Shown here one piece after another: positions 12,582 to 54,410 of a DNA stretch of 64,000 bases. The notes under the pieces were generated by a model. It was not told where the DNA came from and made no database searches. It was given only the letters and a program-made list of their open reading frames with translations. Each line of letters opens with the position of its first letter. Position 1 is the stretch's first letter. This DNA comes from an uncultured Clostridia bacterium (GTDB taxonomy: Bacteria > Bacillota > Clostridia > Christensenellales > Borkfalkiaceae), in the NCBI GenBank assembly GCA_947624965.1, contig CANQMN010000005.1, positions 36,442-100,441 on the forward strand, written 5' to 3'. Both the position numbers and the translations under genes were made by a program.

Positions 12582-14263
12582 CACATCTTCTCCGGCACGC
12601 CGATGCCGAGCAGGCGGAGCGCGGTCGTCATCACCGTGAGCGCGGCGCGGGTGAGCCGAAGCCGATATGCGCGCGTCTCCTCCGATTCCGCCTGCAAAAT
12701 TTTGCATTCGATATAAAACTTGTTGAACTTCTGCGCGCAGTCCACCGCGAAACGGGCGATCGTGCTCGGCTCGTAATTTTTCGCCGCCGCGAGAACGGCG
12801 TCCGGAAATTCGGCGAGCGATTTGAGAACTTCGAGCTCCTGCGCGTTGGGCGCGCACACCGCGTCGCCGAGGCTCGATCCCCCCGCCTTCGCGAGCACGG
12901 AAGCGGCGCGCGCGCAGGTATACTGCACGTAGACGCTCGTCTCGCCGTCGAAATTGAGCGCCTTATCGTAGGAAAAGACGATATCCTTGATCTTATTGTT
13001 GTACAGCGCGCCGAAAACGACCGCGCCCACGCCGACCTTCTCGGCGACGTCCTCCCTGTTTTCGAGGGCGGGGTTCTTCTCTTCGAGCACCTCTTTCGCC
13101 TTCTCGACGCAGCGGGAGATCACGTCTTCCAGCCAAACGACCTTCCCCTGCCGCGTGGACATCGCGCCGTCTTCCAGCGAGACCATGCCGTAGGCGACGT
13201 GCACCATATCCTTCGCCCAGTCCTTCCCCATGAGTTCGAGCACCTTGAAGAGCTGTTTGAAGTGCAGATTTTGCTGGTATGCGACGACGTAGAGGCATTT
13301 CTCGAAATCGTACGTTTTCTTGCGGTAGACCGCCGCGGCGAGGTCGCGCGTTGCGTACAGCGACGCGCCGTCCGAGCGGAGCACGATGAACGGCGGCATG
13401 CCGTATGCTTCGAGATCGACGACCTGCGCCCCTTGGCTCTCGACGAGGAGCCCCTTCTCTTTGAGCTCGTCGATGACGGGCTGCATCTTGTCGATATAAA
13501 AGCGTTCGCCCGCGTAACTGTCGAAACGGATGTGCAGACGGTCGTAGATCTTGCCGACGTACGCCATCGTGAGCGATTTGAACCATTCAAACAACTCGTT
13601 CGCCTCTTCATCCCCGCTCTCGATGAGGCGGAAATACTCGCGCGCCTCCGCCTCCATTTCGGGCGTCGCCTCGCGGTTGAAGCGGACGTACAGATCGTTG
13701 ACGGCGCGGATGCCGCCCTCCTGCACCGCCTCTTTCACGCCCCAATGCTTGTAGGCGGAGATGAGCTTGCCGAACTGCGTGCCGTAGTCGCCGAGGTGGT
13801 TGATTCCCACCGTGCGGTAGCCGAGAAAGCCGAAAATGCGATACAGCGCGCCCCCCAGCACCGTCGTGGAGAGGTGCCCGATGTGGAAGGGCTTTGCGAT
13901 GTTCACCGAGGAATAATCGATGCACACCGTCTTGCCCGCGCCGACGTCCGAAGCGCCGTACCGCTCCCCCTCCCGCTCGATGCGCGCAAGCGTCTCTTCG
14001 GCGAGCGATCTCCCGTCGATCTTGAAATTGAGATAGCCGTTGACGGCGGAGACGGAGGAGACGACGCCGTCCGCGGGATACCGCTCCGCGAGCTCCTGCG
14101 CGATGAGCGCGGGGGATCTGCGGAGAAGTTTTGCGAATTTGAAGCAGGGCAGGGCGTAGTCGCCGAGCGAAGTATCGGGCGGGACGACGATGCTCTCTGC
14201 GAGCTCTTCCTTGCTCACGCCCTCGACGGACAGCCGCTCTGCGATGTAAGTTTTATAATCCAT
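12581..14263 (-). CDS. argS: arginine--tRNA ligase
   Basis: 560 aa with class-I HIGH-type motif PFHIGHL and the ArgRS N-terminal and anticodon-binding layout. Confidence 0.9.
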   Translation of the reverse strand: MDYKTYIAERLSVEGVSKEELAESIVVPPDTSLGDYALPCFKFAKLLRRSPALIAQELAERYPADGVVSSVSAVNGYLNFKIDGRSLAEETLARIEREGERYGASDVGAGKTVCIDYSSVNIAKPFHIGHLSTTVLGGALYRIFGFLGYRTVGINHLGDYGTQFGKLISAYKHWGVKEAVQEGGIRAVNDLYVRFNREATPEMEAEAREYFRLIESGDEEANELFEWFKSLTMAYVGKIYDRLHIRFDSYAGERFYIDKMQPVIDELKEKGLLVESQGAQVVDLEAYGMPPFIVLRSDGASLYATRDLAAAVYRKKTYDFEKCLYVVAYQQNLHFKQLFKVLELMGKDWAKDMVHVAYGMVSLEDGAMSTRQGKVVWLEDVISRCVEKAKEVLEEKNPALENREDVAEKVGVGAVVFGALYNNKIKDIVFSYDKALNFDGETSVYVQYTCARAASVLAKAGGSSLGDAVCAPNAQELEVLKSLAEFPDAVLAAAKNYEPSTIARFAVDCAQKFNKFYIECKILQAESEETRAYRLRLTRAALTVMTTALRLLGIGVPEKM

Positions 14264-17361: not shown

Positions 17362-17415
17362 GAACGTTTCCCTGCCTTCGTATAATAGAATAATTTTTTT
17401 TTCGGGGAGATAACT

Positions 17416-23786: not shown

Positions 23787-24152
23787 TTATCGCTTCTCGA
23801 ACACGACGATCACGCTGATGCCGTCCCGCTCGCTGAACGTTCTTCCGTCGCCGAGCGCGTCGATGAGATAGAGCCCTCTCCCCCGCTCCTCGTCCACGGC
23901 GGAGCAAAAACTCTCCGCGGGCGGACAAAAGTTGTTTTCGCTCTTCACGCTGATGCGGATCTCCCCGCCCGCGACGACGGCGCGCATGCGCGCCCTTCCG
24001 CCGCCATGGACAAGGGCGTTGGAAAGCAGCTCGTTCGCGATGAGCCGACTGTCGAAGACCTTCTCCTCGGGCACGTTTTCCCGGAAGAGGGCCTCGCACA
24101 TGCGATGAAGCGCCGACCGCAGCGCGTTGAAATCGTCGATCTCGTAATCCAT
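23787..24152 (-). CDS. anti-sigma factor / HATPase_c-like serine kinase (RsbW-type)
   Basis: 121 aa with N-box ELLSNALVHG and a GRGLYLI box. The start overlaps the sigma stop (ATGA). Confidence 0.65.
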   Translation of the reverse strand: MDYEIDDFNALRSALHRMCEALFRENVPEEKVFDSRLIANELLSNALVHGGGRARMRAVVAGGEIRISVKSENNFCPPAESFCSAVDEERGRGLYLIDALGDGRTFSERDGISVIVVFEKR

Positions 24153-24877
24153 CAGTCCGCCATGCTCTTTTTCAGTTCGTCTTTGAGTTTGTCCAAAACC
24201 TTGCGTTCCATGCGCGAAACGTACATTTGCGACACGTTCATGCGCTTTGCGGTCTCCGTTTGGGAGAGTTCCTTCCCGAAGCGGAGCCGCACGAGCTCGC
24301 GTTCCCGCTCCGAAAGGGTGGAACAGGCGGCGAGCACCGCGTCGCGGTTTTCAAACCGCTCGAAATCGTCCCTCTCGGCGGGAATGGTCTCGTAGAGGGC
24401 GGGACCCTCCGCGCCGTCCGCGGGCTTATCGAGCGAGACGACGCCGCCCGCCTCCGCCGCGTTGACGACGTCTTCCTCCGAGACCCCCAGCATCGCCGCG
24501 AGTTCGCGCGCGGAGGGAAGCCTGCCGTTCTCCGCAAAGAATTTTTCGGCGCTCTGTTTGAGCGCGCCGCGCAGTTCAAACACCTTGCGCGGAAGATGCA
24601 CGAGACGGGAGCGGTCGCGGAAATAATTTTTGATCTCCCCCGTGATGGTGGGCGTGATGAAGGTGGAAAAGCGCAGACCCTTCGTTTCGTCGAAGCGGTC
24701 TATTCCCTTGACAAGCGCAAGCGAGGCGACCTGATACAGGTCGTCGTATTCCACGCCGCGCCCCACGAACTTCTTCGCGAGAATGGAGGCGATGTACAGA
24801 TATTTTGCGACGATCTCGTCCCGAAGGTGCCTATCCCCCGTCGCGCGATATCTTGCAAACAGCTCGGTCTCGTCCAT
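24152..24877 (-). CDS. SigB/F/G-group RNA polymerase sigma factor
   Basis: 241 aa. Region 2 reads DLYQVASLALVKGIDRFD and FSTFITPTITGEIKNYFRD. The region 4 HTH reads SQTETAKRMNVSQMYVSRMERK. Confidence 0.85.
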   Translation of the reverse strand: MDETELFARYRATGDRHLRDEIVAKYLYIASILAKKFVGRGVEYDDLYQVASLALVKGIDRFDETKGLRFSTFITPTITGEIKNYFRDRSRLVHLPRKVFELRGALKQSAEKFFAENGRLPSARELAAMLGVSEEDVVNAAEAGGVVSLDKPADGAEGPALYETIPAERDDFERFENRDAVLAACSTLSERERELVRLRFGKELSQTETAKRMNVSQMYVSRMERKVLDKLKDELKKSMAD

Positions 24878-28624: not shown

Positions 28625-28653
28625 ATCATAGCGATTTTTTTTCGCTTTGTCAA
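28625..28653 (-). promoter_or_regulatory. candidate sigma-A promoter of the permease gene
   Basis: The reverse strand reads TTGACA-17 nt-TATGAT. Confidence 0.4.
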
Positions 28654-28717
28654 CGGATTTGCGGAAAAAGAGCGTTTCCCTTTGCGGGAAACGCTCTTTT
28701 GTAGTCAGCGGAAGGAA

Positions 28718-30186: not shown

Positions 30187-30215
30187 ATTTTACACGATAT
30201 GAAGGAAAATTTCAA
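30187..30215 (-). promoter_or_regulatory. candidate sigma-A promoter of the ABC ATPase gene
   Basis: The reverse strand reads TTGAAA-17 nt-TGtAAAAT. Confidence 0.4.
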
Positions 30216-30310
30216 GAGAAAATGATAACAAAGATTGACGGGCATTTTGTACAGTTTGCACAAAAAAAGAGGAAAAGCGCCTATTCCTTTTGTGCGGAAT
30301 GCGCGATATT

Positions 30311-31848
30311 CCCCCCCGCGCTCCGCGCGGGGGAGAAGAAGGAAAAGCGCGGGGGTACCAACAACTTACCTCCCCCTTGAAAGGGGGAGGGTTGGGTGGG
30401 GGTTGACGGGAAGGACGAAGGGTGGGGAGAAGAAGCCACTCCCCCTCCCCTATCGCCCGCACGTATTGTGCCGCCGAAGGGCGACACGAGGAGCGGAGCG
30501 ACGAAGTACCCCTCCCCCCCACCCTACCCTCCCCCTCACATCGTGAGGGGGAGGTAAAAACGAGGATGAGGGTAACAAGAACAACAAAGCGCAGGGGGAA
30601 AGTGAAACCACTCCCCCCCTCCTCTCCCCCGCGCGAAGCGCGGGGGAGTGCCAACAACTTACCTCCCCCTTTCAAGGGGGAGGGTTGGGTGGGGGTTGAC
30701 AGGAAGGACGAGAGGCGGGGAGAAGAAGCCACTCCCCCTACCCTATCGCCCGCACGTATTGTGCCGCCGAAGGGCGACACGAGGAGCGAAGCGACGAAGT
30801 ACCCGTCCCCCTCCCCAACCCCTCCCCCTCAATGAGGGGGAGGGTAAATAAGTAGTAATACGCGCGGGGGGAAAGAAGGAAAAGCGAGGGGGTACCAACT
30901 TACCTCCCCCTTGAAAGGGGGAGGGTTGGGTGGGGGTTGACGGGAAGGACGAAAGGTGAGGAGAAGAAACCACTCCCCCTACCCTACCCTCCCCCTCGCA
31001 AAGCGAGGGGGAGGGTAAAAGAAAGAAAAAAGGCGGGGAAATAGAGACCCCCCGCGCTCCGCGCGGGGGGTGAAGAAGGAAAAGCGCGGGGGTACCAACT
31101 TACCTCCCCCCCACTTGAAAGGGAAGGATCTGCCAACTCACCTCCCCCTTGAAAGGGGGAGGGTTGGGTGGGGGTTGAGATCTGCCGCGGCGCTCCTTTG
31201 TCTGCTCTCCCTCCCCAACCCCTGGGTGCGGCGGCAGGTACCGCCGCACCCCCCGTCGCGCTTGCCTGCGCTCCCGTCGCGGCGCGCTACTTCGTGCCGC
31301 GCTTAGTAGACAATAGTGCGCGCGGGGCACAGTCCACTGGACTGTTGAGCAGAACGCGCCGCTCCCCCCCCGCGCGAAGCGCGGGGGGGTTGACGGGAAG
31401 GACGAAAGGTGAGGAGAAGAAACCACTCCCCCTCCCCAACCCCTCCCCCTCGCAAGGCGAGGGGGAGGGTAAAAGAAAGAAAAGCGCGGGGGAGGGTAAA
31501 GAAAGAAAAGCGCGGGAAGGAAAAGACCTCCCCCGCGCGAAGCGCGGGGGTACCAACTTACCTCCCCCTTGAAAGGGGGAGGGTTGGGTGGGGGTTGACG
31601 GGAAGGACGAAAGGTGGGGAGAAGAAACCCCTCCCCCTACCCTACCCTCCCCCCTCACATCGTGAGGGGGGAGGTAAAAAAGACGAACGCGGGGGAGGGT
31701 AAAGAGGGATAGCGCGGGAAGAAAAAGAACTCCCCCGCGCGGAGCGCGGGGGAGGTTTGGTTCGTTATGGATACCGAAAGGTCGGTTGCGTATCCAATGT
31801 GGAGGGGGCTCCCCCTCCCCTACCCCTCCCCCTCAATGAGGGGGAGGG
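30311..31848. repeat. mosaic array of GC-rich palindromic units (left flank of giant lipoprotein gene)
   Basis: It contains recurrent hairpin units CCCCCGCGC-nnn-GCGCGGGGG, CCTCCCCC-TTGAAA-GGGGGAGG with a conserved tail, and CCCTCCCCCTC-loop-GAGGGGGAGGG. Details are in the findings. Confidence 0.85.
31257..31369 (+). repeat. 113-bp direct repeat, copy 1
   Basis: CGCGCTTGCCTGCGCTCCCGTCGCGGCGCGCTACTTCGTGCCGCGCTTAGTAGACAATAGTGCGCGCGGGGCACAGTCCACTGGACTGTTGAGCAGAACGCGCCGCTCCCCCC recurs at 36607-36719 with a single mismatch. Confidence 0.9.
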
Positions 31849-31884
31849 TGGGTTAAGCGTTAACGCCTAATCGGTCGAGAAGTG

Positions 31885-34800
31885 TTACTCTTGGGGCGTA
31901 AGCGTATTGCTGTAACAGAACGAGAGGTTATCGAGCCACCAGGTATTGCCAAGTTGCAATCTGAAAGTGAGCGCTTCCGTCGTAAAGTCATGCAAAACGA
32001 TCTTGTGCTCCCAAACAGATTCGTTCTGGCTGTGCAAACTGATGAGCACCGTGAACTTACTGCCGATCCTGTAAACCGTTACCTCGTAATCCCCGATAAC
32101 TTCCTCATCGCCCTCAACTTCCTCAGCAGGCTGCTGGGGTTTGGTTCCTTGGGTCGTCTCGTTGGTTTCGATTTTGTCATTAGTCAGGTCGCCCCAGATG
32201 TTACCATCGACAACATTGTAGTCGAAGTACTGATTGGCTGCATTAAAGAACTCGACAAAGCCGCAGTTGAAATACTTGCCGGCATCGCGTGTATTCGACC
32301 AAGATATTACCGCTACAAAGTCGCCCGCGGCAACTTGAACCTCGCTCGACGCGTCGCCGCCTTGTCCCCCGATAGCATTCGTATCGGCGTTATAGAAGGC
32401 ATAATTTCTCTCTGCCGTTGCGTTATACGTCGTATCGCTTTCCGTGATGGTGAGTTTCCGCGCGCCGCAGATGGAGCAGACGTTCTCCTCCCACTGGTGG
32501 TCGGCTTCCACTGCGGGAACGCTCTGCGCATTGCCGCTCCTCGTGACCGTGCCCGTGAACTGTACGCCCGCTTCGTCGCCGGCGATCCCGAGCCAATACT
32601 TATCCGCAAGTTTTTGATGCTTGTCGTATGCAGTATAGGTCATCACGTTCTGATAGTGCTTATCGCTCGCGGAGAACGTCGTGGTAACGACGATCTTCGT
32701 CGAATCCGAAAAGTCTACTACGATCTGGAAGTCGGACAAGGAGACCCCCACAAAGCTCGCTTGGAAGGTTTCACGCGAAGAAGCCACGTCGTCTATCGTC
32801 GAGTTAGACGTATAGGCGAGCATCGTATCGACGTTTACCGCACTGTTGCCCTTTGCGTTGTCGTTTACAAGAATGTTGTTGGCTTCGTAAACAGAGAATG
32901 CGATATTCACACTGTCCCCGTCATTCGGCGCCAATACGGCGACAACGGAGTCCCAAGCGTGAGTGAACTGCGTAGACCCTGCGTACGTAACCGTCTGCCC
33001 ATACCCGATGGACATGGAGAGCCATTCGGGCTGGAACCAACCCGTGCCGGTATAAGGCGTTTCGGTGTAGTTTACGCTGTTGAGGTCGTAAACCGCTTCG
33101 AGCGTGATACTGCCGCTCAGCGAAGAGAACTGCGAATCCGCCGTATAGGTCGAATTGTCGTTCGTCCCTTTCCAATAGCGGAAGGTACCCTTCGTGGACG
33201 TGGGATCCTCGTATCCTTCGACGAGGTCGGAAAGTTTGCCGTTCGACGTGCTCGTGAGCCCTGTCTGCTTCTTATACTCCGAACCGTCGTTCATGAGCGT
33301 GATGGTGAAGTCCTCCTTGAACACCGCAACAAACTCGATGTCGTCCATCTCGTCCGTCAGCGTAAGTTCGGAGATCGCCGTGGTATCGCCACTGCCGTCC
33401 GCGGAGTAGGTCGTGCCGTCATACTTCCAGCCGACGAGCGCGTGATCCGTCCACGTAGGGCCGTCCTCGGGAAGGGTGATCGCCTCGCCCGACTTCTTCG
33501 TTTGGGTCTGAACGTCCCACGAATCGCCATCGTAGTCTCCGTCCGTCGTGAAGGTTATGGTGTGCGCCTTCTCCCAAACCGCAACGAACTCGATGTTCGC
33601 AGTGATCGGGGTCTCATACTTTTCGCCGTCGTGCGTGTAGAGGCGCTCGCCCGAAACGTCGGTGGAGAGCTTCCAACCCTTGAAGGTCAGCTTGCCGTCC
33701 GTCGCCGTGGGATCTTCGGGCCACTGATCGGTGAGCGTCGTGTTCTTATCTACATAGAAGGACGTAGAGCCGTTGCCCTTCTCATCCGTGAAGGTAACTT
33801 GCGGGCGCTCTTCCCAAACCGCCGTGAAGGTGGTATCGGCAGTGATCGTCCCGGCGTAGGGGCTCGCCTTGGTGTACTTGGTATCGTCCCCGCCGTTCTT
33901 CGTCCAGCCGAGGAACTTGAAGCCCTCGGGCGCCGTGGGATCGTTGGGCCACTGATCGCCGATCGTCGCGTTTTGGTCTACATAGAAGGACGTAGAACCG
34001 ATGTTCTTGTCATCCGTGAAGGTGATATGCCACTGCCGTTCCCACTGCGCGTTGAACGTCGTCGCGTCAATGATCGCTTCGGAATAGGGGTTCGACTTGG
34101 TGTACTTTTCGCCGTCGTTGCCGTCCTTCGTCCAACCGAGGAACTTCCAGCCCGTTACGACGGGATCTTCGGGCCAAGAGCCCGCGGGGATCGTTTCGCC
34201 CTTTACGACGGAGAGCGTCTTGCCGCTTCCGCCCTTGTTATCCGTAAAGGTAACTTCCCACACTTGGTCTGCGCTCGGCTGGGTGTAAACCGCATACGTC
34301 GCGGGTTCGCCGCCGTAGATGCCGATGCTCTCATCGAGGTAGTGCAGGAACCAATATTCGAGATCTTCGTCTCCCGAAGCAAAGCCGACGTAGCCGTAAC
34401 CGCCGAGCCACATGATCGCGCCCGTCTTGGCGCCCATCGACAGGCTGCCCTCTTCGATGATAACGGTCTCGTGCTCCGCCGCCATCCACGTGCCTTCCAC
34501 GTCCGAGGGTGCGAGACCGATCGGGTTCTTCGTTGCATTCGCAGAGCCGATGACGATGTGGTCCGTATCATACGTGAAGGAAAGGAGGCCGCTGTACTCG
34601 GTGGTATACGTGCCGTCTGCATAGTTGACCGCTACGAGACGCGCGGACTGGGTATCGCCCGCCGTCCAGATGAGCGCATTCGCAACGTGCGTGCCCTCTA
34701 CATCCGCGGGAACGGTGATGAGAATGGTGTCGTTCCCGTTCGCATACTGCCCTTCGATCTCCAATTCCCAAACTGCGGCATACTCGTATGTCTCGCCGCC

Positions 34801-36183
34801 TTCGAGTTCCGTGATCGTCTCGCCGGGAGCTTTAATTGTCATCGAGCCGACGCCGTGGCCGCCCCCTTCATTGACGCCCCAACCCTTGAAGGCGTAGCAA
34901 CCGAGCGACGCCGTAAATCCGAGCGCAGAAGGCTGGGGAAGGGTGAGCGAGAAGGTATCCGAAGTTTCCGTAAGGCAAGCGCGCACCTTGTTGTTTGCCT
35001 TGCCGATCGAGCCGCCCTCACCGCTGCCCGCGTTGAACACAACTTCGGGACGGATGGCGACTTTTTCGCCGTAGAGCGTGATATCTGCCGTCGGAACGTA
35101 GGTATAGTCCACAAGGGTGGTCGCATCGTGCGTCGTCTCGTCCGTATACCAATACATTTCCTGCGTCCAAACATCGTTTTCGAGCGCTTCGTCATCGACG
35201 TCGCTGAACGCCCACTCGTCGCCGATGGGCTCGCCCTTCGCGACTTCGATCGTCGCGGTGAGCGGCGCCCCCTCCACAGAGAAGGAGACCGTCCACTTGT
35301 CCTCGGCGAGAATATCGCCGTTCTCGTACATCGTGCAGCTGTCGCCGCCCAGAACGTTGACGCCGCCCGTCGTCTTTTCCACGATGTAGTAGTCGTCGTC
35401 GGCGCACGTAAGGACCGCCCACTTGCCGAGATAAATTACGGTGTAGCCGTCGCCGTCAAGGGTCGCCATGCCGCCCGTCTTGATTTCGAGACGGGACGTC
35501 TCATGATGATAGACGCCGACAAATTCGGGCGTTGCGGGAAGCGCGGCATGCTCGGTGAGTTGGAGCGTATCCATATCGCCGTACTTAAACGTGAGCGTTC
35601 CTTCCGCATAGGAGAGGATCGCATCCTCGGCGGGAAGCGCATTCCCCTGGATGCTTTTCAGCGTATACGCGCCGTCCTCTTCGTCAACTTGGAGAAGTAT
35701 CGTAAAACAGTGCGAGCTCGACGAATCGTCGCGGGCAACCATCACGAGGTCGTAATCGTAGCCTGCCAACGTGCCCGCGGCTTGAATGCCGATCTCCATG
35801 GTCATCGTAACGCCGGGCCCCTCCGAATCCGTGATGGTCCAGAGACCCGGGATGCCGTCGGGAACGTTTTCCTGCCACTGCGCGGTGAACGTTACGTTCT
35901 TCTTGGGCATCGTATATTCCGCCTTGGCGGCGTACGTCTTCGTGCCGTCGCTCCAACCCGTGAACGTATGATTCTCATACGAATAGGTGCTTTCCGCAAG
36001 CTGGAACTTTTCCCCCTCTGCGTGCGTTTCGCTTTCAGGCGTCGTTCCCGTTACCGCCGTGTTGCCCGGCGCGTACGTTACGGTGTACTTGTCCCCCTCC
36101 GTCTCCGTACACGCGGCAATGCCGCACGCCAGAAGCGATACGAGAAGAACGGAGCCGAACACTTTGCACAAAAGTTTCTTCAT
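31885..36183 (-). CDS. 1432-aa surface lipoprotein with InlB B-repeat (Listeria-Bacteroides repeat) domains
   Basis: It has signal peptide plus lipobox MKKLLCKVFGSVLLVSLLACGIAAC. There are at least 6 repeats ending in F.GW...(A/T)(V/Q)W (e.g. FLGWTKDG...FNAQW, FKGWKL...FVAVW). The C-terminus has beta-sandwich-like domains. An AGGAGG RBS is present. Confidence 0.8.
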   Translation of the reverse strand: MKKLLCKVFGSVLLVSLLACGIAACTETEGDKYTVTYAPGNTAVTGTTPESETHAEGEKFQLAESTYSYENHTFTGWSDGTKTYAAKAEYTMPKKNVTFTAQWQENVPDGIPGLWTITDSEGPGVTMTMEIGIQAAGTLAGYDYDLVMVARDDSSSSHCFTILLQVDEEDGAYTLKSIQGNALPAEDAILSYAEGTLTFKYGDMDTLQLTEHAALPATPEFVGVYHHETSRLEIKTGGMATLDGDGYTVIYLGKWAVLTCADDDYYIVEKTTGGVNVLGGDSCTMYENGDILAEDKWTVSFSVEGAPLTATIEVAKGEPIGDEWAFSDVDDEALENDVWTQEMYWYTDETTHDATTLVDYTYVPTADITLYGEKVAIRPEVVFNAGSGEGGSIGKANNKVRACLTETSDTFSLTLPQPSALGFTASLGCYAFKGWGVNEGGGHGVGSMTIKAPGETITELEGGETYEYAAVWELEIEGQYANGNDTILITVPADVEGTHVANALIWTAGDTQSARLVAVNYADGTYTTEYSGLLSFTYDTDHIVIGSANATKNPIGLAPSDVEGTWMAAEHETVIIEEGSLSMGAKTGAIMWLGGYGYVGFASGDEDLEYWFLHYLDESIGIYGGEPATYAVYTQPSADQVWEVTFTDNKGGSGKTLSVVKGETIPAGSWPEDPVVTGWKFLGWTKDGNDGEKYTKSNPYSEAIIDATTFNAQWERQWHITFTDDKNIGSTSFYVDQNATIGDQWPNDPTAPEGFKFLGWTKNGGDDTKYTKASPYAGTITADTTFTAVWEERPQVTFTDEKGNGSTSFYVDKNTTLTDQWPEDPTATDGKLTFKGWKLSTDVSGERLYTHDGEKYETPITANIEFVAVWEKAHTITFTTDGDYDGDSWDVQTQTKKSGEAITLPEDGPTWTDHALVGWKYDGTTYSADGSGDTTAISELTLTDEMDDIEFVAVFKEDFTITLMNDGSEYKKQTGLTSTSNGKLSDLVEGYEDPTSTKGTFRYWKGTNDNSTYTADSQFSSLSGSITLEAVYDLNSVNYTETPYTGTGWFQPEWLSMSIGYGQTVTYAGSTQFTHAWDSVVAVLAPNDGDSVNIAFSVYEANNILVNDNAKGNSAVNVDTMLAYTSNSTIDDVASSRETFQASFVGVSLSDFQIVVDFSDSTKIVVTTTFSASDKHYQNVMTYTAYDKHQKLADKYWLGIAGDEAGVQFTGTVTRSGNAQSVPAVEADHQWEENVCSICGARKLTITESDTTYNATAERNYAFYNADTNAIGGQGGDASSEVQVAAGDFVAVISWSNTRDAGKYFNCGFVEFFNAANQYFDYNVVDGNIWGDLTNDKIETNETTQGTKPQQPAEEVEGDEEVIGDYEVTVYRIGSKFTVLISLHSQNESVWEHKIVLHDFTTEALTFRLQLGNTWWLDNLSFCYSNTLTPQE

Positions 36184-36325
36184 TCTGGTCCTCCTGATAT
36201 TATTTTTGCTCTATGTCCAACGGTTATGCATCTCTCCCGAGAACCCCCATTGCCGGGAGAAAAGCATCGCCACCTGTGCCGATTTCCTCGGTTTTTTTGA
36301 CAATAAAAACCAATTATGTGGGTAT

Positions 36326-36355
36326 AGTATACCATTACCCCCCCCCGAATGTCAA
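36326..36355 (-). promoter_or_regulatory. promoter of the giant lipoprotein gene with a G9 tract in the spacer
   Basis: The reverse strand reads TTGACA ttcGGGGGGGGGtaatgg TATACT. The spacer is 18 nt with a TGg extended -10. The C9 run lies at 36338-36346 on +. Confidence 0.55.
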
Positions 36356-36390
36356 CCGTTTTGTGAAAATTTATTTTTTATTATAAGGTC

Positions 36391-37477
36391 TGCGCGCCCG
36401 CGCGTGAGAAACCACGCCCTTCGGCGCACTTTTCCACCCCCACCCCTTATGAGGGGGAAAGAGAGTGTTCTCCCCACGTTGAGGGGGGGAACGAAGCCAC
36501 TCCCCCCACCCTACCCCTCGGGTGCGGCGGCAGGTACCGCCGCACCCCCCGTACTTCGGCGCAATGCGCCTCGTGCCGCGCTTAGTAGACAATCGTGCGC
36601 GCGGGGCGCGCTTGCCTGCGCTCCCGTCGCGGCGCGCTACTTCGTGCCGCGCTTAGTAGGCAATAGTGCGCGCGGGGCACAGTCCACTGGACTGTTGAGC
36701 AGAACGCGCCGCTCCCCCCTCGCTTGCGAGGGGGGAGGTAAAGAGAACCGACGAGAGGGATATATAGCTACCTTCCCCCTCGCTTGCGAGGGGGAAGGTA
36801 AAAAGGAAAACGCGGGGAGAGAATATATCCACCTCCCCCCTTCCAAGAGGGAGCAAAATCTATCTACCTCCCCCTTCCAAGGGGAAACAAAATATATCCA
36901 CCTCCCCCTTTCCAAGGGGGAGGGTTGGGTGGGGGTTGATTTCCTCACTCGCCTTTCCCCTCTCCTTTCCTCCCCCTCATTGAAAGGAGAGAAAAATAGA
37001 GTGTTCTCCCCTCAACGAGGAGAGAACGAAGCCACTCCCCCTACCCTGCCCTTCCCCCTCGCAACGCGAGGGGGAAGGTAAAGAGAACCGACGCGGGGAA
37101 ACAAAATCTATCTACCTCCCCCTTCCAAGGGGAAACAAAATATATCCACCTCCCCCTTCCCAAGGGGAAACAAAATATATCCACCTCCCCCTTTCCAAGG
37201 GGGAGGGTTGGGTGGGGGTTGATTTCCTCACTCGCCTTTCCCCTCTCCTTCCCCCCCTCATTGAAAGGAGAAAAAATAGAGTGGTCTCCCCTCGTTGAGG
37301 GGAGACCGAAACCACTCCCCCTACCCTACCCTCGGGTGCGGCGGCAGGTACCGCCGCACCCCCCGTACTTCGGCGCAATGCGCCTCGTGCCGCGCTTGGT
37401 CAATAATAGTGCGCGCGGGGCGCGCTTGCCTGCGCTCCCCCTACCCTGCCCTCCCCCCTCGTGAACGAGGGGGGAGG
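36391..37477. repeat. mosaic array of GC-rich palindromic units (right flank / upstream of giant lipoprotein gene)
   Basis: It uses the same unit families as the left array. It also has about 34-bp mini-units (caaaatatatccaCCTCCCCCttccaaGGGGG) and a duplicated compound unit (36854-37046 and 37102-37329). Confidence 0.85.
36607..36719 (+). repeat. 113-bp direct repeat, copy 2
   Basis: It matches 31257-31369 with one A/G mismatch. Confidence 0.9.
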
Positions 37478-37539
37478 TAAGAGGGAACCGACGCGGGAGG
37501 AGGGAAAAACGGCGTGGGAGGAGAGAGCGGCATAAAAAA

Positions 37540-37567
37540 TCCGCGCGGACAGATCTGTCCGCGCGGA
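37540..37567 (-). terminator. rho-independent terminator of clpX
   Basis: The palindrome is TCCGCGCGGACAGATCTGTCCGCGCGGA, followed on the reverse strand by ATTTTTTATG. Confidence 0.7.
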
Positions 37568-37587
37568 ACGGTTTCCCTATTCTTCCG

Positions 37588-40932: not shown

Positions 40933-42555
40933 ATGCCGCAGGACGCTTTTACCCTTCGCCTCGTCGCCAAAGAACTCAACGAAGAGCTCACGGGCGGGCG
41001 CGTCAACAAAATCAACCAACCGGACCGCGAGGAGGTCTCCCTTGTTATATACACGGGAAAACGCACCGTTAAACTCGTCGTCAACGCAAATGCCTCCGAT
41101 TGCGGCGTTTATTTTTGCGACGACGACAGGGAAAACCCCCTCAACGCCCCCAACTTCTGCATGCTCCTGCGCAAACACTTGCAGGGCGCGCAGATCCTCG
41201 GCGTCTCCATGGTCGGCTTCGAGCGCATCTTGAAGATCCGCTTTCTCTGCCTCTCCGATTTCTCCTCGTGCGAGCGGGAACTCTGCGTGGAGGTGATGGG
41301 CAAGTACTCCAACGTCCTCCTCCTCGAACGGGATATTATCCTCGGCGCGATGAAGACGACTTCTCTCGACGAAAACCGCCGCCGCGTCATCCTCGCGGGC
41401 GCAAAGTATACGCTCCCCGCCCCGCAGGACAAAGTGGACCCGCGCGACTTCGCCGCGCTCTCCCGCGTGCTTTCCGCCGCCGAGGGGGACAGGGCGCGCT
41501 ATCTCTTCACGCGCGTCGCGGGGCTCGCCCCCGTAACGGCGGAACAGATCGCCGCGGGCGATACGGGCGGGGACTTCGCGCGGTACGTTTACGACTACAT
41601 CTTTTCCGACGAGATCTCCCCCTGCGCGACGGAGAGCGACTTCTTCGCGCGAACCGTGGCGGGCGCGGTCCCCTACCCCACCCTCTCCGCCGCCCAGACG
41701 GCGTTCTATCGGGCGAAGCGGGCGAAAAAAGCGGAGGACGGGCTGAAAAGGCGGCTCCTCTCCGCCATTTCCGCCGCGCTGAAAAAGCACGAAAAGCGGC
41801 TCGCGCAGGAAGAGGAAAAGCGCAGGGACTGCGCGCTCGCGGAGGAAAACCGCAAAAAGGGAGAACTTCTCACCGCCAATCTCTGGCGGCTTCCGCGCGG
41901 GGAGAAGAGCTGTGAACTGACCGACTATACGGACGGTTCCGCCGTGAAAATTTCCCTCGACGCGCGCCTCTCCCCCGCCGAAAACGCGCAGGCATACTTC
42001 AAAAAATACCGCAAACAAAAGCGCGCGTTGGAAATCCTCGATGCGCAGGAAGAAGAGACGCGCGCGGAGATCGGGTCGCTGTGCGCGCTCCGCGCCGCCG
42101 TCGTAAGCGCGGACGGCACGGAGGACCTTCTCTGCGCGGAAGAAGAGCTTCTGCTCGCCGGGCTGTTGAAGTCGCCCGAACGGGACGGTCGGCGCAAAAA
42201 GACGGCGGAATATCCCTTCCGCGTCTATGAAAAGGACGGCTTCACCGTGCGCGCGGGCAGAAACAATTTGCAGAACGAAAGGCTGGTGCGGCTCTCCGCG
42301 CCCGAGGACATCTGGTTCCACGCACAGCGGTACCATTCCTGCCACGTCGTCGTCAGGACAGAGGGACGCGAAGTTCCCCGCGCCGTGCTGCAATTCGCCG
42401 CGGACGTATGCGCAAAGTATTCGGACGGGGGCGGAGACCGCGTCGCCGTGGACTACTGTCCCGTCCGCCGCGTAAAAAAGCCCGCGGGCGCAAAGGCGGG
42501 CTTTGTTACCTATACCGACCATGAGACGCTCCTCGGCGATCCCGAACACGTGTGA
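40933..42555 (+). CDS. rqcH: ribosome quality control factor RqcH (NFACT / FbpA family)
   Basis: 540 aa. The NFACT-N start is MPQDAFTLRLVAKELNEEL.GGRVNKINQP, followed by a coiled-coil middle and an NFACT-R/DUF814 region (WFHAQRYHSCHVVV). Confidence 0.8.
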   Translation: MPQDAFTLRLVAKELNEELTGGRVNKINQPDREEVSLVIYTGKRTVKLVVNANASDCGVYFCDDDRENPLNAPNFCMLLRKHLQGAQILGVSMVGFERILKIRFLCLSDFSSCERELCVEVMGKYSNVLLLERDIILGAMKTTSLDENRRRVILAGAKYTLPAPQDKVDPRDFAALSRVLSAAEGDRARYLFTRVAGLAPVTAEQIAAGDTGGDFARYVYDYIFSDEISPCATESDFFARTVAGAVPYPTLSAAQTAFYRAKRAKKAEDGLKRRLLSAISAALKKHEKRLAQEEEKRRDCALAEENRKKGELLTANLWRLPRGEKSCELTDYTDGSAVKISLDARLSPAENAQAYFKKYRKQKRALEILDAQEEETRAEIGSLCALRAAVVSADGTEDLLCAEEELLLAGLLKSPERDGRRKKTAEYPFRVYEKDGFTVRAGRNNLQNERLVRLSAPEDIWFHAQRYHSCHVVVRTEGREVPRAVLQFAADVCAKYSDGGGDRVAVDYCPVRRVKKPAGAKAGFVTYTDHETLLGDPEHV

Positions 42556-42702
42556 GCGTTCCGAAAAGGCGCCGCCGTGGACTACTGCCCCGTCCGCCAC
42601 GTAAAAAAGCCCGCGGGCGCAAAGGCGGGCTTCGTTACTTACACCGACTATGAGACGCTCCTCGGCGATCCCGAACACGTGTGAGCGTTCCGAAAAGGCG
42701 CC
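42445..42702 (+). repeat. 129-bp tandem duplication covering the rqcH 3' end and stop
   Basis: Copy 1 spans 42445-42573 and copy 2 spans 42574-42702, with 6 mismatches. Confidence 0.9.
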
Positions 42703-42731
42703 GCCGCCCCCGAACACGGGGCGGCGGCGCC
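42697..42731. terminator. stem-loop between convergent rqcH and metH
   Basis: GGCGCCGCCGCCCC-cgaacac-GGGGCGGCGGCGCC followed by TTATTA. Confidence 0.65.
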
Positions 42732-51706: not shown

Positions 51707-54337
51707 TTATGCGTTCTTCGTCCAAGTATAGAAGTCCGTCAACGCCGCCGCAACTGCGGCAGGATCGGAAAAGTCGGGCGTAACGTCTTCATCAAAGTAG
51801 TTCTTCGCCGTCCAACCCGTCGCATCGGCGAACGTCGCCCCCGTCAGACCGCATCCGGAAAACGCGTCCCCGCCGAGCTCTGCGACGCTCGCCGGAATGA
51901 TAACGCTCGTAAGGTCATAGTTGGAAGCAAACGCGCTTGCGCCGATATGCCGCACCTTTTCTCCGAGCGTGAGTTCGGTGATGCCGCAGTACTCGAACGC
52001 ATGGTCCCCGATGAACGTAACGTTCCCCGAAACGGTAACGCTTGTAAGATCATAGTTGGAAGCAAACGCCGCCTCCCCGATCGTCTCCGTATTCGCGCCG
52101 AGTCGGAGCCCCGTAATGCCGCAAGAGTCGAATGCGTGCGCGCCGATCTCCTTCACGTCCGAGCCGATCGCGACCTCGTCATAGATCGCCTTACCCGAGA
52201 AGGCATAGTCGCCGATCTTCCGAACGCCGTCCACGGTGAGCGCGCCGTATCCGCTCACAATGCCGATGACGAGGGTATCCGTCGCCTTTTCCACGACGCC
52301 GCACGTCCTCACCTCATAGAAGGAATTGCCCGCCGCCACCTCGATCTCGGTGAGGTTACTGTTATCGGCGAACGCCGTGGAGGCGATCTTCTCCACGCTC
52401 GCGGGCAAATGGAGCGCCGTCGTCGAGATATTCCAAAACGCGTACGGCTTGATCTCCTTCACGCCCTCGGGAATGGTGAGCGTTGTCCCGTAGTCGTTGA
52501 TCACCGTCTCTACGCCGCCCGCGGTCGAGGCATAGATAGTCGCACTCTCCCAAACCAAGGGGTTCGCGCCGTCGTCCGCAAAGTCGATCTCGCACCACTT
52601 CGCAAGGTCTTTGATGTGGAAGACGGTGTCCTCGCCGAACGGCGTGCAGGAGGAGAACGCCCATTCGCCGACCCGCTTCAACCCCGTGCCGATGGTGAGA
52701 TCGGTGATCGTTCCGCAGTTATAGAACGCCCGTTCGCCGATCTCCTCCACGCTGTCGGGAATGACGAACGTCGGCGAGAGCGCCGTCTGCTCGAACGTAT
52801 GGGCGGGAACGATCTTTATGCCGCTCGGAATTTGCGAATTACAGCATCCGAGCACGACGGACATCGTCGCCCTGTCATAGATGCAGTTGGTCTCCGACCC
52901 GTACGCGGCATTGCCCGCGGCAACGGAGAGCGACGTGATATCCGCACAGCCTTGCAGAACGCCGAAGCCGATCTTCTCGACGTCCTTCCCGACCGTGAAG
53001 GAGGTAAGCTCCGCACAGCCCGCAAAGGTAAAGGCGTTGATCTCGGTCACGCCGTCGGGAATGACGACTTCGGTAACCTTCTGCCCGTCCGCATAGAGCA
53101 AGGCGTTCCCGCCGTTGAGCGGGTTCGCGGAGGCGTCGGGAGAGTCCTCATCATAGACGAATTCGATTTCAAGCCACTGTGCGAGGGAGGGAATGTTCAC
53201 CGTCTGAATGGCGTCGCACATGGAAAACGCCGATCCCTCGATTTTTTTCAGCCCGCTGCCGAAGGAGACCGATCGCAGCGCGTCGCAGAGCATAAACGCG
53301 CCGTTCCCGATCTTGCGCAAGCTGTCGGGGAGTTCGATCTCCTCCAACAAACTGCAAAAGGAGAATGCGCTCGAACCGATGGATCTCACATTTTCCCCGA
53401 AAGTCACGTTCGCGAGGTTGGAACAACCGTCGAACACATTGTCCATGATGACCGCCGTCTCTGCCGCGATCGTAACCTCGGTGATCCCCTCGATGCTCTC
53501 GGGGTCTGCGATCGCGACGAGGACCAATTTCGGATGCTCCGCGTTGCCGAGATAGTTGTATCCCCCCTCCTCATGATAGGTGAGCGCGTCGCACTCCTCG
53601 AAGGCGCCGTAACCGATCTCCGCGATACTGTCGCCGAGGGACAGGGTTTCGAGCGCGGAACACCCGAAAAAGGCGTAGGCCGCAATTTCCGACACGCTGT
53701 CGGGAAGAACGATGGTCTCGATCTTATCGCAATAGCCGAAGGCGCAGTAGCCGATGCTCTTGATATTGTTGCCGAATACGACCTCTTCGAGCACTTTCCC
53801 GACGTCTTTTGCGTCCGCGCGGAACGCATGTGCTGCGATCGCCGTCACAGGCTTTTCGTTATGCGTATCGGGAATGACGATCTTTGTGAGGGTGTCGTTC
53901 GTCGTCCCCGTCACAGTGTAACCGCCGTCCTCGTTTTCGAGGAACCCGAGCGAAGTCGTGCCGTCCGCATGCCAATGGCAGACGGAACACTCGTAGTCGT
54001 TGATAAAGGTATGCTCCGCCTCGCCGTCACGCGCGCCGCAGCGCGTGCACGCGTAGTAATGACCGTTTTCATCCGCCGAATAGGTCGTCTCGAAGTCATG
54101 CCCGAGTTTGGTTATGGCTTGCGTTTCAATGTCGTCGCACGTCGTGCATTCGCGCTGCCGTTCGCCGTCCGCCGTGCAGGTCGCGTCCCTCGTCGTATGC
54201 CATTCGCCATAGGCATGGGTATGGGGCTCAATACCCCCCCCCGGATTTTCGCTGTCGCTTCCGCAGGCGCAGAGCGCCGACATCGAACCCGTCGCAAGAA
54301 ACACAGCCGCCAAGATCGTCGCAATTTTCCGTCTCAT
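51707..54337 (-). CDS. BspA-type leucine-rich-repeat surface lipoprotein
   Basis: 876 aa with signal plus lipobox MRRKIATILAAVFLATGSMSALCAC, a Cys/His-rich N-terminal module, and many LRR_5-type units (IPDSV..IG..AF..C..L..). Confidence 0.8.
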   Translation of the reverse strand: MRRKIATILAAVFLATGSMSALCACGSDSENPGGGIEPHTHAYGEWHTTRDATCTADGERQRECTTCDDIETQAITKLGHDFETTYSADENGHYYACTRCGARDGEAEHTFINDYECSVCHWHADGTTSLGFLENEDGGYTVTGTTNDTLTKIVIPDTHNEKPVTAIAAHAFRADAKDVGKVLEEVVFGNNIKSIGYCAFGYCDKIETIVLPDSVSEIAAYAFFGCSALETLSLGDSIAEIGYGAFEECDALTYHEEGGYNYLGNAEHPKLVLVAIADPESIEGITEVTIAAETAVIMDNVFDGCSNLANVTFGENVRSIGSSAFSFCSLLEEIELPDSLRKIGNGAFMLCDALRSVSFGSGLKKIEGSAFSMCDAIQTVNIPSLAQWLEIEFVYDEDSPDASANPLNGGNALLYADGQKVTEVVIPDGVTEINAFTFAGCAELTSFTVGKDVEKIGFGVLQGCADITSLSVAAGNAAYGSETNCIYDRATMSVVLGCCNSQIPSGIKIVPAHTFEQTALSPTFVIPDSVEEIGERAFYNCGTITDLTIGTGLKRVGEWAFSSCTPFGEDTVFHIKDLAKWCEIDFADDGANPLVWESATIYASTAGGVETVINDYGTTLTIPEGVKEIKPYAFWNISTTALHLPASVEKIASTAFADNSNLTEIEVAAGNSFYEVRTCGVVEKATDTLVIGIVSGYGALTVDGVRKIGDYAFSGKAIYDEVAIGSDVKEIGAHAFDSCGITGLRLGANTETIGEAAFASNYDLTSVTVSGNVTFIGDHAFEYCGITELTLGEKVRHIGASAFASNYDLTSVIIPASVAELGGDAFSGCGLTGATFADATGWTAKNYFDEDVTPDFSDPAAVAAALTDFYTWTKNA

Positions 54338-54381: not shown

Positions 54382-54410
54382 ATTATACCATAACCCCGCC
54401 GCATTTGCAA
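54382..54410 (-). promoter_or_regulatory. candidate promoter of the LRR lipoprotein gene
   Basis: The reverse strand reads TTGCAA-17 nt-TGgTATAAT. Confidence 0.5.

What the first reader, a model, noticed from the sequence alone, without database searches (positions are those of the whole stretch)
36326..36355. G9 homopolymer inside the -35/-10 spacer of the giant lipoprotein promoter (candidate phase-variation switch)
The best sigma-A-like promoter upstream of the 1432-aa lipoprotein gene reads, on the reverse strand, TTGACA ttcGGGGGGGGGtaatgg TATACT with a TGg extended -10. The spacer is 18 nt, and half of it is an uninterrupted G9 run (C9 at 36338-36346 on +). Gaining or losing one G by slipped-strand mispairing would give a 17-nt (optimal) or 19-nt spacer. 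That is the classic transcriptional ON/OFF or volume switch of contingency loci in Neisseria, Haemophilus and Mycoplasma. A second G9 run sits in the 5' coding region of the other large surface lipoprotein in this window (54234-54242), so chance seems unlikely.
Basis: partly seen in the sequence, partly recalled or inferred. Interest (0 to 1): 0.75.

Follow-up and report, generated by a model that had tools for sequence, protein, structure and literature searches.

The report
Poly-G tract inside a lipoprotein promoter
A run of nine Gs sits between the two recognition boxes of the promoter of a giant surface lipoprotein gene in an uncultured Clostridia bacterium, and the same arrangement recurs in a distant relative, so it is probably a slippage-prone expression switch of a long-known type, though no change in its length has yet been seen.

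Summary
On the minus strand the sequence reads TTGACA-ttcG9taatgg-TATACT: an 18-nt spacer with a TGn extended -10, 143 nt upstream of the 1432-aa lipoprotein gene. A second G9 lies in codons 32-35 of the window's only other lipoprotein, which is BspA/LRR_5-like.

Counting G/C runs in the window does not exclude chance (0.3-1.6 runs of 9 or more expected, 2 seen). Comparative data do. A different species (GCA_947589555.1; ClpX 89% aa, clpX 80% DNA) has the same layout downstream of clpX: hairpin-repeat array, AT-rich block, TTGACA-atG9tgggc-TATACT (16-nt spacer) and a large Flg_new lipoprotein. Its LRR orthologue also carries an in-frame G9 in the same linker. Relatives without these tracts show no G/C run of 7 or more in about 20 kb of homologous DNA.

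Strong promoters in this organism almost always have 17-nt spacers. Both tract promoters are therefore one slip from that spacing.

Length variation itself is not shown. All five assemblies carrying the promoter read G9, but they are one strain from one study.

Verdict: a well-supported candidate for a classical homopolymer promoter-spacer switch (porA and tp0126 type). It is a new member of a known kind.

The parts
36350..36355 (-). -35 hexamer TTGACA
   Evidence: perfect consensus
36338..36346 (-). G9 homopolymer (C9 on +) occupying half of the 18-nt spacer; the proposed slippage site
   Evidence: same length in 5 contigs of the same strain
36326..36334 (-). Extended -10 element: TGg (36334-36332) plus TATACT (36331-36326)
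   Evidence: TG_before_second = yes
36356..36392 (-). AT-rich block directly upstream of -35 (ccttataataaaaaataaattttcacaaaacgg), UP-element-like in a 59% GC region. It also holds a TATAAT at 36385-36380 with a poor -35 at 19 nt, a possible weak second promoter.
   Evidence: UP-element function is inferred
36184..36319 (-). Predicted 5' leader (TSS inferred near 36319). It contains the hairpin UCUCCCGG...CUCGGGAGA and the RBS AGGAGG at 36195-36190. No Rfam family matches.
   Evidence: (MFE -38.6, z -2.0)
31885..36183 (-). 1432-aa lipoprotein gene (signal peptide and lipobox, about 8 Flg_new/InlB-B repeats, orphan N- and C-terminal regions); the gene under the promoter
   Evidence: (no full-length homologue among 5.8e9 proteins)
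36370..37535 (.). Upstream array of modular GC-rich hairpin repeats between the clpX terminator (about 37565-37535) and the promoter
30190..31884 (.). Downstream array of the same kind of hairpin repeats between the lipoprotein stop and the ugpC/msmX promoter. The whole 30190-37587 block is absent from relatives that have clpX directly followed by ugpC.
54234..54242 (-). Second G9, in frame (CCG GGG GGG GGT = PGGG) in the linker after the lipobox of the LRR_5 lipoprotein. G7, G8, G10 and G11 give stops after 35-75 residues.
51707..54337 (-). 876-aa BspA-type LRR_5 lipoprotein gene carrying the second tract
54382..54410 (-). Promoter of the LRR gene: TTGCAA-17 nt (atgcggcggggttatgg)-TATAAT with TGn. 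It has a G-rich but interrupted spacer of canonical length, for comparison.

Best explanation
The G9 run is a selected simple-sequence repeat placed in the spacer of the sigma-A-type promoter of a large, fast-evolving surface lipoprotein gene. Slipped-strand mispairing during replication would add or remove a G and change the -35/-10 spacing among 17 nt (G8, the organism's canonical spacing and probably the highest activity), 18 nt (G9, the state in all assemblies, probably reduced activity) and 19 nt (G10, probably weak). This would give heritable, reversible cell-to-cell differences in how much lipoprotein is made. Because a TGn extended -10 lies downstream of the tract, the effect is more likely a graded volume control than a complete ON/OFF switch. 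The in-frame G9 in the neighbouring LRR lipoprotein would be a translational ON/OFF partner. Together they would form a small 'phasome' of surface proteins in this lineage.

Shown: the anatomy, the 17-nt norm, the recurrence in a second species, and the frameshift consequences. Inferred: the TSS, tract mutability and the effect on expression.
For: (1) Anatomy: a perfect -35, TGn plus TATACT and an 18-nt spacer half-filled by G9. It is the only promoter-like site between clpX and the gene.
(2) Of the 20 promoter-like sites in the window with at least 10 of 12 matches (spacers of 15-19 nt allowed), 19 are intergenic and 16 of those have a 17-nt spacer. This promoter is one of two with 18 nt. The 17-nt spacer also dominates in relatives.
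(3) Recurrence: in GCA_947589555.1 (ClpX 88.8% aa, clpX 80% DNA) the region after clpX has a terminator, a hairpin array, an AT-rich block, TTGACA-at-G9-tgggc-TATACT (16-nt spacer, 11 of 12 matches), an 80-nt leader and a 1021-aa Flg_new lipoprotein. The flanking spacer bases, the leader and the mature protein are not alignable, yet the G9 is there. The chance of such a run in a given spacer is about 3e-4.
(4) The same two genomes both carry an in-frame xxG GGG GGG GGT in the LRR linker. Given the PGGG peptide, codon usage predicts this about 2% of the time (my arithmetic: CCG 0.276 x GGG 0.264 x GGG 0.264, frequencies). Orthologues in L145 and L146 and in about 6 strains of another species have no tract.
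(5) Long G/C runs are otherwise avoided. Outside the repeat arrays the counts are 6:17, 7:0, 8:0, 9:2, and there is no run of 7 or more in 20 kb of L149-L158.
(6) The targets are the only two lipoproteins in the window, the typical class of contingency genes.
(7) Precedents: a poly-G between -35 and -10 with an optimum at 17 nt in T. pallidum tp0126 and N. meningitidis porA, and the tprL tract, which varies from G7 to G11 in vivo (PMC7864442). G/C runs of 7 or more are used as a phase-variation cut-off (PMC6321876). BspA-like proteins are SSR-switched in Ca. Mycoplasma girerdii (PMC5476646).
Against: No length polymorphism was seen. Five contigs carrying the promoter tract and three contigs (covering four samples) carrying the LRR tract all read G9. 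They are one strain at about 6x coverage, and these are consensus assemblies, so this evidence is weak. All four tracts in the two species are exactly G9, which could also mean a stable element. The TGn extended -10 lessens dependence on -35 spacing, and an 18-nt spacer is functional in many sigma-A promoters, so the present state need not be 'low'. The number of G9 runs in the window is within Markov expectation. A G9 also occurs in a convergent 3' intergenic region in L146, so not every tract in this family is at a 5' end. The TSS is unmapped, and a TATAAT 55 nt upstream could be an alternative promoter. The mismatch-repair status of the organism is unknown.
Confidence: 0.55

Rival explanations
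1. Static promoter element: the G-run is conserved because poly(dG)-poly(dC) in the spacer has a fixed role, such as a binding site for a regulator or a rigid, under-twisted spacer that sets basal strength. Length changes would be too rare to matter biologically.
For: All four tracts in the two species are exactly 9. Five assemblies show no variation. The LRR gene's promoter has a similar G-rich but interrupted spacer, gcggcgggg, followed by tTATGGTATAAT, which hints at a shared G-rich spacer style.
Against: The two promoters have different total spacers (18 and 16 nt) and different positions of the run relative to both hexamers, which fits poorly with a positioned binding site. The same run length also occurs inside a coding region, where only its repetitiveness is a shared property. 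Uninterrupted runs are avoided elsewhere in the sampled DNA.
Confidence: 0.17
2. Neutral by-product: the intergenic DNA around this gene is packed with G/C-rich hairpin repeats that carry G5-G8 runs. The G9 would be a chance or decayed piece of that material, or a recent slippage expansion with no selected function.
For: All eight G/C runs of 7-8 in the window lie in the flanking arrays. Markov expectation for runs of 9 or more is 0.3-1.6. L146 has a G9 in a non-regulatory 3' intergenic site.
Against: The run lies outside the arrays, in an AT-rich promoter block. It forms no hairpin with neighbouring sequence and does not match the repeat units. A neutral run would not reappear precisely between TTGACA and TATACT in a species whose neutral sites are saturated (clpX 80% DNA identity; promoter flanks unalignable). 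The probability is about 3e-4 per spacer.
Confidence: 0.15
3. The predicted promoter is not the one used. The lipoprotein gene would be transcribed from elsewhere (for example the TATAAT at 36385-36380, read-through from clpX, or an alternative sigma factor), so the tract would lie outside any spacer that matters.
For: The TSS has not been mapped. The leader from the -10 to the ATG is unusually long for this organism, 143 nt against 7-61 nt for most other predicted promoters that lie just upstream of a gene start. The window encodes an alternative sigma factor with its anti-sigma partner, at 23787-24877.
Against: This is the best match in the 1.4-kb intergenic region (11 of 12, with TGn and AT-rich upstream DNA). 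clpX ends in a strong terminator followed by about 1.2 kb of hairpins. An equivalent TTGACA/TATACT pair is the best site in the second species as well.
Confidence: 0.08
4. Sequencing or assembly artefact: the homopolymer length was miscalled.
For: Homopolymers are error-prone, and coverage is only about 6x (contig names).
Against: The same G9 is found in three ENA assemblies and two independent Logan assemblies. Tracts of the same kind occur in an unrelated MAG project. The coding G9 keeps an 876-aa frame open.
Confidence: 0.03

Closest known systems
Neisseria meningitidis porA promoter (poly-G between -35 and -10)
   Same: In both, a homopolymeric G tract of about 9-11 lies in the spacer of a sigma-70-type promoter of a surface protein gene. 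Tract length sets the spacing, and expression falls away from 17 nt (as summarised in PMC7864442).
   Different: porA is in a Gram-negative pathogen with experimentally shown variation and expression levels. Here the host is an uncultured high-GC Clostridia lineage, a TGn extended -10 is present, the target is a lipoprotein rather than a porin, and no variation has been shown.
Treponema pallidum tp0126 (and tprE/G/J, tprL) poly-G promoters
   Same: tp0126 has a poly-G between -35 and -10, with best transcription when the spacing is 17 nt. The tprL tract is mostly G9 with G7-G11 minorities in vivo (PMC7864442). As here, several surface-protein genes in one genome carry poly-G tracts.
   Different: The host is a spirochaete and the tracts are shared by paralogous gene families. 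Variation and reporter effects were measured there; neither was measured here.
Mycoplasma hyorhinis vlp variable lipoprotein promoters (poly-A in the -35/-10 spacer)
   Different: The vlp case uses a poly-A tract of about 17 nt in an AT-rich genome and a multigene vlp family with size-variable repeats. Here the tract is poly-G in a 60% GC genome at a single locus.
SSR-switched BspA-like surface proteins of Candidatus Mycoplasma girerdii; poly-G coding tracts of Campylobacter
   Same: For the second tract: a repeat in the 5' coding part of BspA/LRR surface proteins gives frameshift ON/OFF states. This was shown from metagenomic reads (PMC5476646). Poly-G/C runs of 7 or more are the main SSR type in Campylobacter (PMC6321876).
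   Different: Ca. M. girerdii uses CA dinucleotide repeats and has 28 BspA-like copies. Here a single G9 sits in one syntenic LRR gene, currently in frame.

Membership tests
SSR-mediated transcriptional phase variation (homopolymer in the promoter spacer) | Uninterrupted homopolymer long enough to be hypermutable (G/C of 7-8 or more) | tested here: met
   G9 at 36338-36346; cut-off of 7 or more from PMC6321876
SSR-mediated transcriptional phase variation (homopolymer in the promoter spacer) | The tract lies between the -35 and -10 elements of the promoter that drives the gene | tested here: inconclusive
   Met at sequence level: the best and only sigma-70-like site, 11 of 12 with TGn, and the same layout in L147. 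The TSS is not mapped.
SSR-mediated transcriptional phase variation (homopolymer in the promoter spacer) | Tract length differs within populations or between strains | tested here: inconclusive
   Five contigs all read G9, but they are at least 99.98% identical and so one strain. No other strain is in the collections. The second species also has G9, in a 16-nt spacer.
SSR-mediated transcriptional phase variation (homopolymer in the promoter spacer) | Expression changes with tract length | not testable with these tools
   Only indirect evidence: 17 nt is the norm (16 of the 19 intergenic strong sites). G8, G9 and G10 give 17, 18 and 19 nt.
SSR-mediated transcriptional phase variation (homopolymer in the promoter spacer) | The target is a surface-exposed or otherwise contingency-type gene | tested here: met
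   Lipobox signal peptide, Flg_new repeats, and an orphan, fast-diverging sequence
SSR-mediated translational phase variation (second tract, LRR gene) | A repeat inside the reading frame near the 5' end, with +/-1 changes giving early stops | tested here: met
   G7, G8, G10 and G11 give stops at 35-75 aa; G9 gives the 876-aa protein
SSR-mediated translational phase variation (second tract, LRR gene) | Observed ON and OFF alleles | tested here: inconclusive
   Only the ON form (G9) was seen, in all three contigs (four samples) that carry the tract. The 90% cluster has a single member, so no truncated variants are on record. The orthologue in L144 is also in frame.
Invertible-promoter (site-specific recombination) phase variation | Inverted repeats flanking the promoter, with both orientations found | tested here: not met
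   No inverted-repeat pair brackets 36300-36400. All five contigs have the same orientation.
Riboswitch or other known cis-regulatory RNA in the leader | Match to an Rfam family | tested here: not met
   No match at gathering score. At E up to 1 there are only hairpin noise hits in the arrays.

The most novel reading that the evidence does not exclude
The site downstream of clpX may be a conserved 'expression site' in some uncultured Clostridia. A slippage-tunable promoter (TTGACA-G9-TATACT) and a lipoprotein signal peptide would stay in place while the mature part of a giant Flg_new lipoprotein is replaced or diversifies beyond recognition. The whole unit is insulated by, and perhaps exchanged through, kilobase arrays of modular hairpin repeats. 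It would be paired with a frameshift-switched BspA-type adhesin, giving a two-gene phasome that has arisen or been kept in non-sister lineages.
Probability: 0.2. Interest if true: 0.65.

Novelty: new member of a known kind. Interest (0 to 1): 0.45.

Why it matters
Known phase variation in Clostridia and gut commensals is dominated by invertible DNA switches. Homopolymer promoter-spacer switches are textbook for Neisseria, Haemophilus, Treponema and Mycoplasma. If the switch here is confirmed, uncultured, high-GC Clostridia would be using the same slipped-strand strategy to vary large surface lipoproteins and a BspA-type adhesin. That would matter in three ways: for reading MAG 'frameshifts' and promoter indels as biology rather than error, for predicting which surface antigens or phage receptors are heterogeneous in a population, and for mining metagenomic reads for contingency loci. 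The test is cheap: count tract lengths in existing reads.

Tried and rejected
1. Genome-contig scan with the array 20-mer GGGGGAGGGTTGGGTGGGGG, intended to pull in more of this genome.
2. Metagenome-contig scan with TTGACATTC-N5-14-TAATGGTATACT. It returned 12 unrelated promoters, none with poly-G and none homologous.
3. Homologue search with the 1432-aa protein. It found only itself; other hits share Flg_new repeats only, so no strain comparison through the gene was possible.
4. Relatives found through the UgpC cluster (L008-L010), the ClpX cluster (L148) and the ClpP cluster (L149-L158) lack the lipoprotein block. They served as negative controls only.
5. Extending the window with end genes failed or added nothing.
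6. Rfam at gathering and permissive thresholds found nothing relevant, and no tRNA genes were found.
7. An invertible-promoter reading was rejected: no flanking inverted repeats and a single orientation.
8. A hairpin or terminator role for the G-run was rejected: there is no complementary C-run nearby.
9. Global and MAFFT alignments of the two species' promoter regions showed no alignable homology beyond the consensus boxes, RBS and signal peptide.
10. Function of the lipoprotein: there were no PDB or NCBIfam hits for the 1432-aa protein; the L147 protein gave only the List_Bact_rpt/Flg_new repeat.
11. Cluster look-ups for an organism name returned only 'Clostridia bacterium' or 'Firmicutes bacterium'.

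Full report
**1. The observation**

Reading the minus strand of 36100-36700 gives aacgg TTGACA ttc GGGGGGGGG taatgg TATACT atacccaca.
- The -35 hexamer is at 36355-36350, the G9 at 36346-36338 and the -10 hexamer at 36331-36326.
- The spacer is 18 nt, and TG at 36334-36333 makes a TGnTATACT extended -10.
- The consensus scan of 35900-37200 returns this as the only sigma-70-like site: 11 of 12 matches with TG present, against 0.5 expected in shuffles.
- Directly upstream is an AT-rich block of about 37 nt in otherwise 59% GC DNA.
- Downstream are a leader of about 135 nt with one strong hairpin, AGGAGG (36195-36190) and the ATG at 36183.
- The ORF encodes 1432 aa and starts MKKLLCKVFGSVLLVSLLAC|G.
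- Pfam sees Flg_new/InlB-B repeats only.
- The second G9 (54234-54242) reads CCG GGG GGG GGT = PGGG, 7-10 residues after the lipobox Cys of an 876-aa BspA-type LRR_5 lipoprotein.
- Any +/-1 or +/-2 change in that tract ends the protein after 35-75 residues.

Every factual element of the finding is therefore correct.

**2. Is it more than chance?**

Counting alone does not say so.
- The window has exactly two G/C runs of 9 or more.
- Markov models of order 1-7 fitted to the window expect 0.6-1.6, and leave-out versions expect 0.3-0.9.

Three other facts point away from chance.
- All eight runs of 7-8 lie in the hairpin-repeat arrays that flank the lipoprotein gene. Outside the arrays the distribution is 6:17, 7:0, 8:0, 9:2.
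- A simple gene map shows only two lipoproteins among about 44 genes, and each carries one tract at its 5' end.
- The comparative result in section 4 is the strongest.

**3. Promoter norm in this organism**

I scanned the window for sites with at least 10 of 12 matches, allowing spacers of 15-19 nt.
- There are 20 such sites and 19 are intergenic, most of them a short distance upstream of a gene start.
- Sixteen of the 19 intergenic sites have a 17-nt spacer.
- The lipoprotein promoter is one of two with 18 nt.
- The same 17-nt dominance holds in relatives.
- It also holds among the unrelated metagenomic promoters that share this promoter's flanks.

Losing one G would restore the canonical spacing, and gaining one would give 19 nt.

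**4. Related sequences**

*No other strains are available.*
- The lipoprotein is an orphan. Among 5.8 billion proteins only itself is found, and other hits share Flg_new repeats only.
- Housekeeping proteins of the window are singletons at 90% identity, so this is a rare, unnamed Clostridia lineage.
- Five public contigs carry the exact protein, and all read G9.
- They are at least 99.98% identical to the window and come from one study.
- This is therefore one strain, and the invariance is weak evidence.

*The block is lineage-specific.*
- Relatives reached through the UgpC, ClpX and ClpP clusters have tig-clpP-clpX followed directly by ugpC or by other genes.
- The 7.4-kb block at 30190-37587 (array, lipoprotein gene, array) is therefore absent from them.

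*The key result came from the orthologues of the LRR lipoprotein* (53-54% identity, syntenic ffh-rpsP-khpA-LRR-pgi). Contig CANQAZ010000030.1 of GCA_947589555.1 (loci L144 and L147) holds two G/C runs of 7 or more in 16.9 kb, and both are G9.
- One lies in the LRR orthologue's linker (CAG GGG GGG GGT, in frame).
- The other lies about 580 nt downstream of clpX in TTGACA-at-GGGGGGGGG-tgggc-TATACT. This has a 16-nt spacer, scores 11 of 12 and is the best site in that intergenic region.
- The second tract is preceded by a terminator, a hairpin-repeat array and an AT-rich block.
- It is followed by an 80-nt leader and a 1021-aa lipoprotein (MKKHFLRLFAALAVACLGFGVLAAC|G) with Flg_new repeats, and then by more hairpin repeats.

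*How far apart the two organisms are.*
- ClpX is 88.8% identical, clpX DNA 80%, PGI 85% and Tig 71%.
- They are not each other's closest relatives among the genomes sampled.
- Their lipoproteins share only the Flg_new repeats and the style of signal peptide.
- Their promoter flanks and leaders do not align.

*What this implies.*
- A G/C run of 9 or more is expected in a given 16-18-nt spacer about 3e-4 of the time.
- An unselected run would not survive this much divergence.
- The tract has therefore either been kept by selection or arisen twice at the same functional position. Both possibilities argue for function.

*Controls.*
- L145 and L146 have CCGGGCGGA and TCGGGCGGA at the LRR linker.
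- About six strains of the ClpP-P0156 species have an unrelated linker, a 17-nt promoter without a run, and no G/C run of 7 or more in 20 kb.
- One counter-example exists: a G9 in a convergent 3' intergenic region of L146.

**5. How it most likely works**

The simplest property shared by a run in a promoter spacer and a run in a reading frame is slippage.
- I therefore favour (0.55) a classical contingency design. Replication slippage would change the promoter run among G8, G9 and G10, giving 17, 18 and 19 nt in the window organism. The corresponding G10, G9 and G8 would give 17, 16 and 15 nt in the second species. Promoter strength would change heritably and reversibly.
- The LRR gene would flip ON and OFF by frameshift.
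- Both assembled promoters are one step from 17 nt, in opposite directions, which is what a population sitting in a non-maximal state would look like.
- In the window organism the TGn motif lies downstream of the tract and is unaffected by its length. Because extended -10 promoters tolerate poor -35 contacts (established knowledge), I expect graded rather than absolute control there. The second species lacks TGn.

Shown: the anatomy, the spacing norm, the recurrence and the frameshift outcomes. Inferred: the TSS, the mutability and the effect on expression.

**6. Rivals**

- A static G-rich spacer element (0.17). It fits the identical length of nine in all four tracts and the absence of variation seen. 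It does not fit the different spacer totals and positions, or the coding-region twin.
- A neutral by-product of the G-rich arrays (0.15). It fits the Markov counts and the L146 counter-example. It does not fit the recurrence.
- A different real promoter (0.08).
- An artefact (0.03). Independent assemblies and the open 876-aa frame argue against it.
- An invertible switch and a known leader RNA were tested and not found.

**7. Comparison with known systems**

- The design matches N. meningitidis porA and T. pallidum tp0126. In both, a poly-G between -35 and -10 has an optimum at 17 nt (PMC7864442).
- It resembles the M. hyorhinis vlp poly-A lipoprotein promoters (my own knowledge).
- The coding tract matches Campylobacter-type poly-G switches (PMC6321876) and the SSR-switched BspA-like proteins of Ca. 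Mycoplasma girerdii (PMC5476646).
- Membership is met for tract length, position (at sequence level) and target class. It is undecided for length polymorphism and untestable here for the expression effect.

**8. Verdict**

It is a new member of a known kind in a lineage where such switches are not documented. Interest is moderate (0.45). The decisive test, counting tract lengths in the existing reads, is simple.

Noticed in passing
window 30190-31884 and 36370-37535; L147 11290-11790 and 14985-15278; L149-L152 10592-11480: Kilobase arrays of modular GC-rich hairpin repeats (for example CCTCCCCCTTGAAAGGGGGAGG plus a GGGTTGGGTGGGGG tail, and CCCCCGCGCGAAGCGCGGGGG) flank the lipoprotein gene on both sides. 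Similar arrays flank the analogous gene in a second species. They also fill the clpP-clpX spacer of a third species, where modules are present or absent between strains. Assemblies tend to break in them. Their function is unknown; insulation by terminators or a role as recombination substrates are possibilities.
   Followed up: partly
This suggests a widespread or convergent G-rich hairpin-tail motif.
   Followed up: no
window 30190-37587: The whole block (array, 1432-aa lipoprotein gene with its promoter, array) sits between clpX and ugpC/msmX. In several relatives those two genes are adjacent (about 200 nt apart), so the block is a lineage-specific insertion or a remnant of a variable site.
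   Followed up: yes
window 28625-28660 (-) and 17394-17402 (+): An A8 run lies in the 17-nt spacer of the TTGACA/TATGAT promoter of the ArsP_2 permease gene; relatives have no run there. A T9 run lies in the short leader between a TATAAT and the ATG at 17416. Both are shorter than usual poly-A/T phase-variation cut-offs.
   Followed up: no
L144 1-200: At least eight tandem copies of a 22-nt unit (GAGAGACTTCGGAAAAACCGAT-like) lie directly upstream of, and run into the called start of, the LRR orthologue in GCA_947589555.1, at the contig end. This is a second kind of repeat at the 5' end of the same gene.
   Followed up: no
L146 16683-16691: A G9 run lies in a convergent 3' intergenic region between a 280-aa gene and pgi. 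It shows that long G runs in this family are not confined to 5' ends.
   Followed up: partly
window 36278-36292 (+): A terminator-like hairpin followed by a T7 run on the plus strand lies inside the lipoprotein leader. It would stop antisense transcripts leaving the gene. On the sense strand it has no U-tail.
   Followed up: no
window 42440-42706: A near-perfect tandem duplication (129 nt x 2.1, 94% identity) lies at the 3' end of the NFACT-family gene and in the adjacent intergenic DNA.
   Followed up: no
window 12581-14263 (ArgS); protein P0169: A variant of ArgS at 90% identity or more exists on a 38,017-nt ENA contig. It probably comes from a second strain of this rare lineage and might include the promoter region.
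   Followed up: no
window 54382-54410 (-): The LRR gene's promoter (TTGCAA-atgcggcggggttatgg-TATAAT) resembles the lipoprotein promoter in its 3' spacer and -10 (tTATGGTATAAT against tAATGGTATACT). Its G-rich stretch is interrupted and the spacer has the canonical 17 nt.
   Followed up: partly
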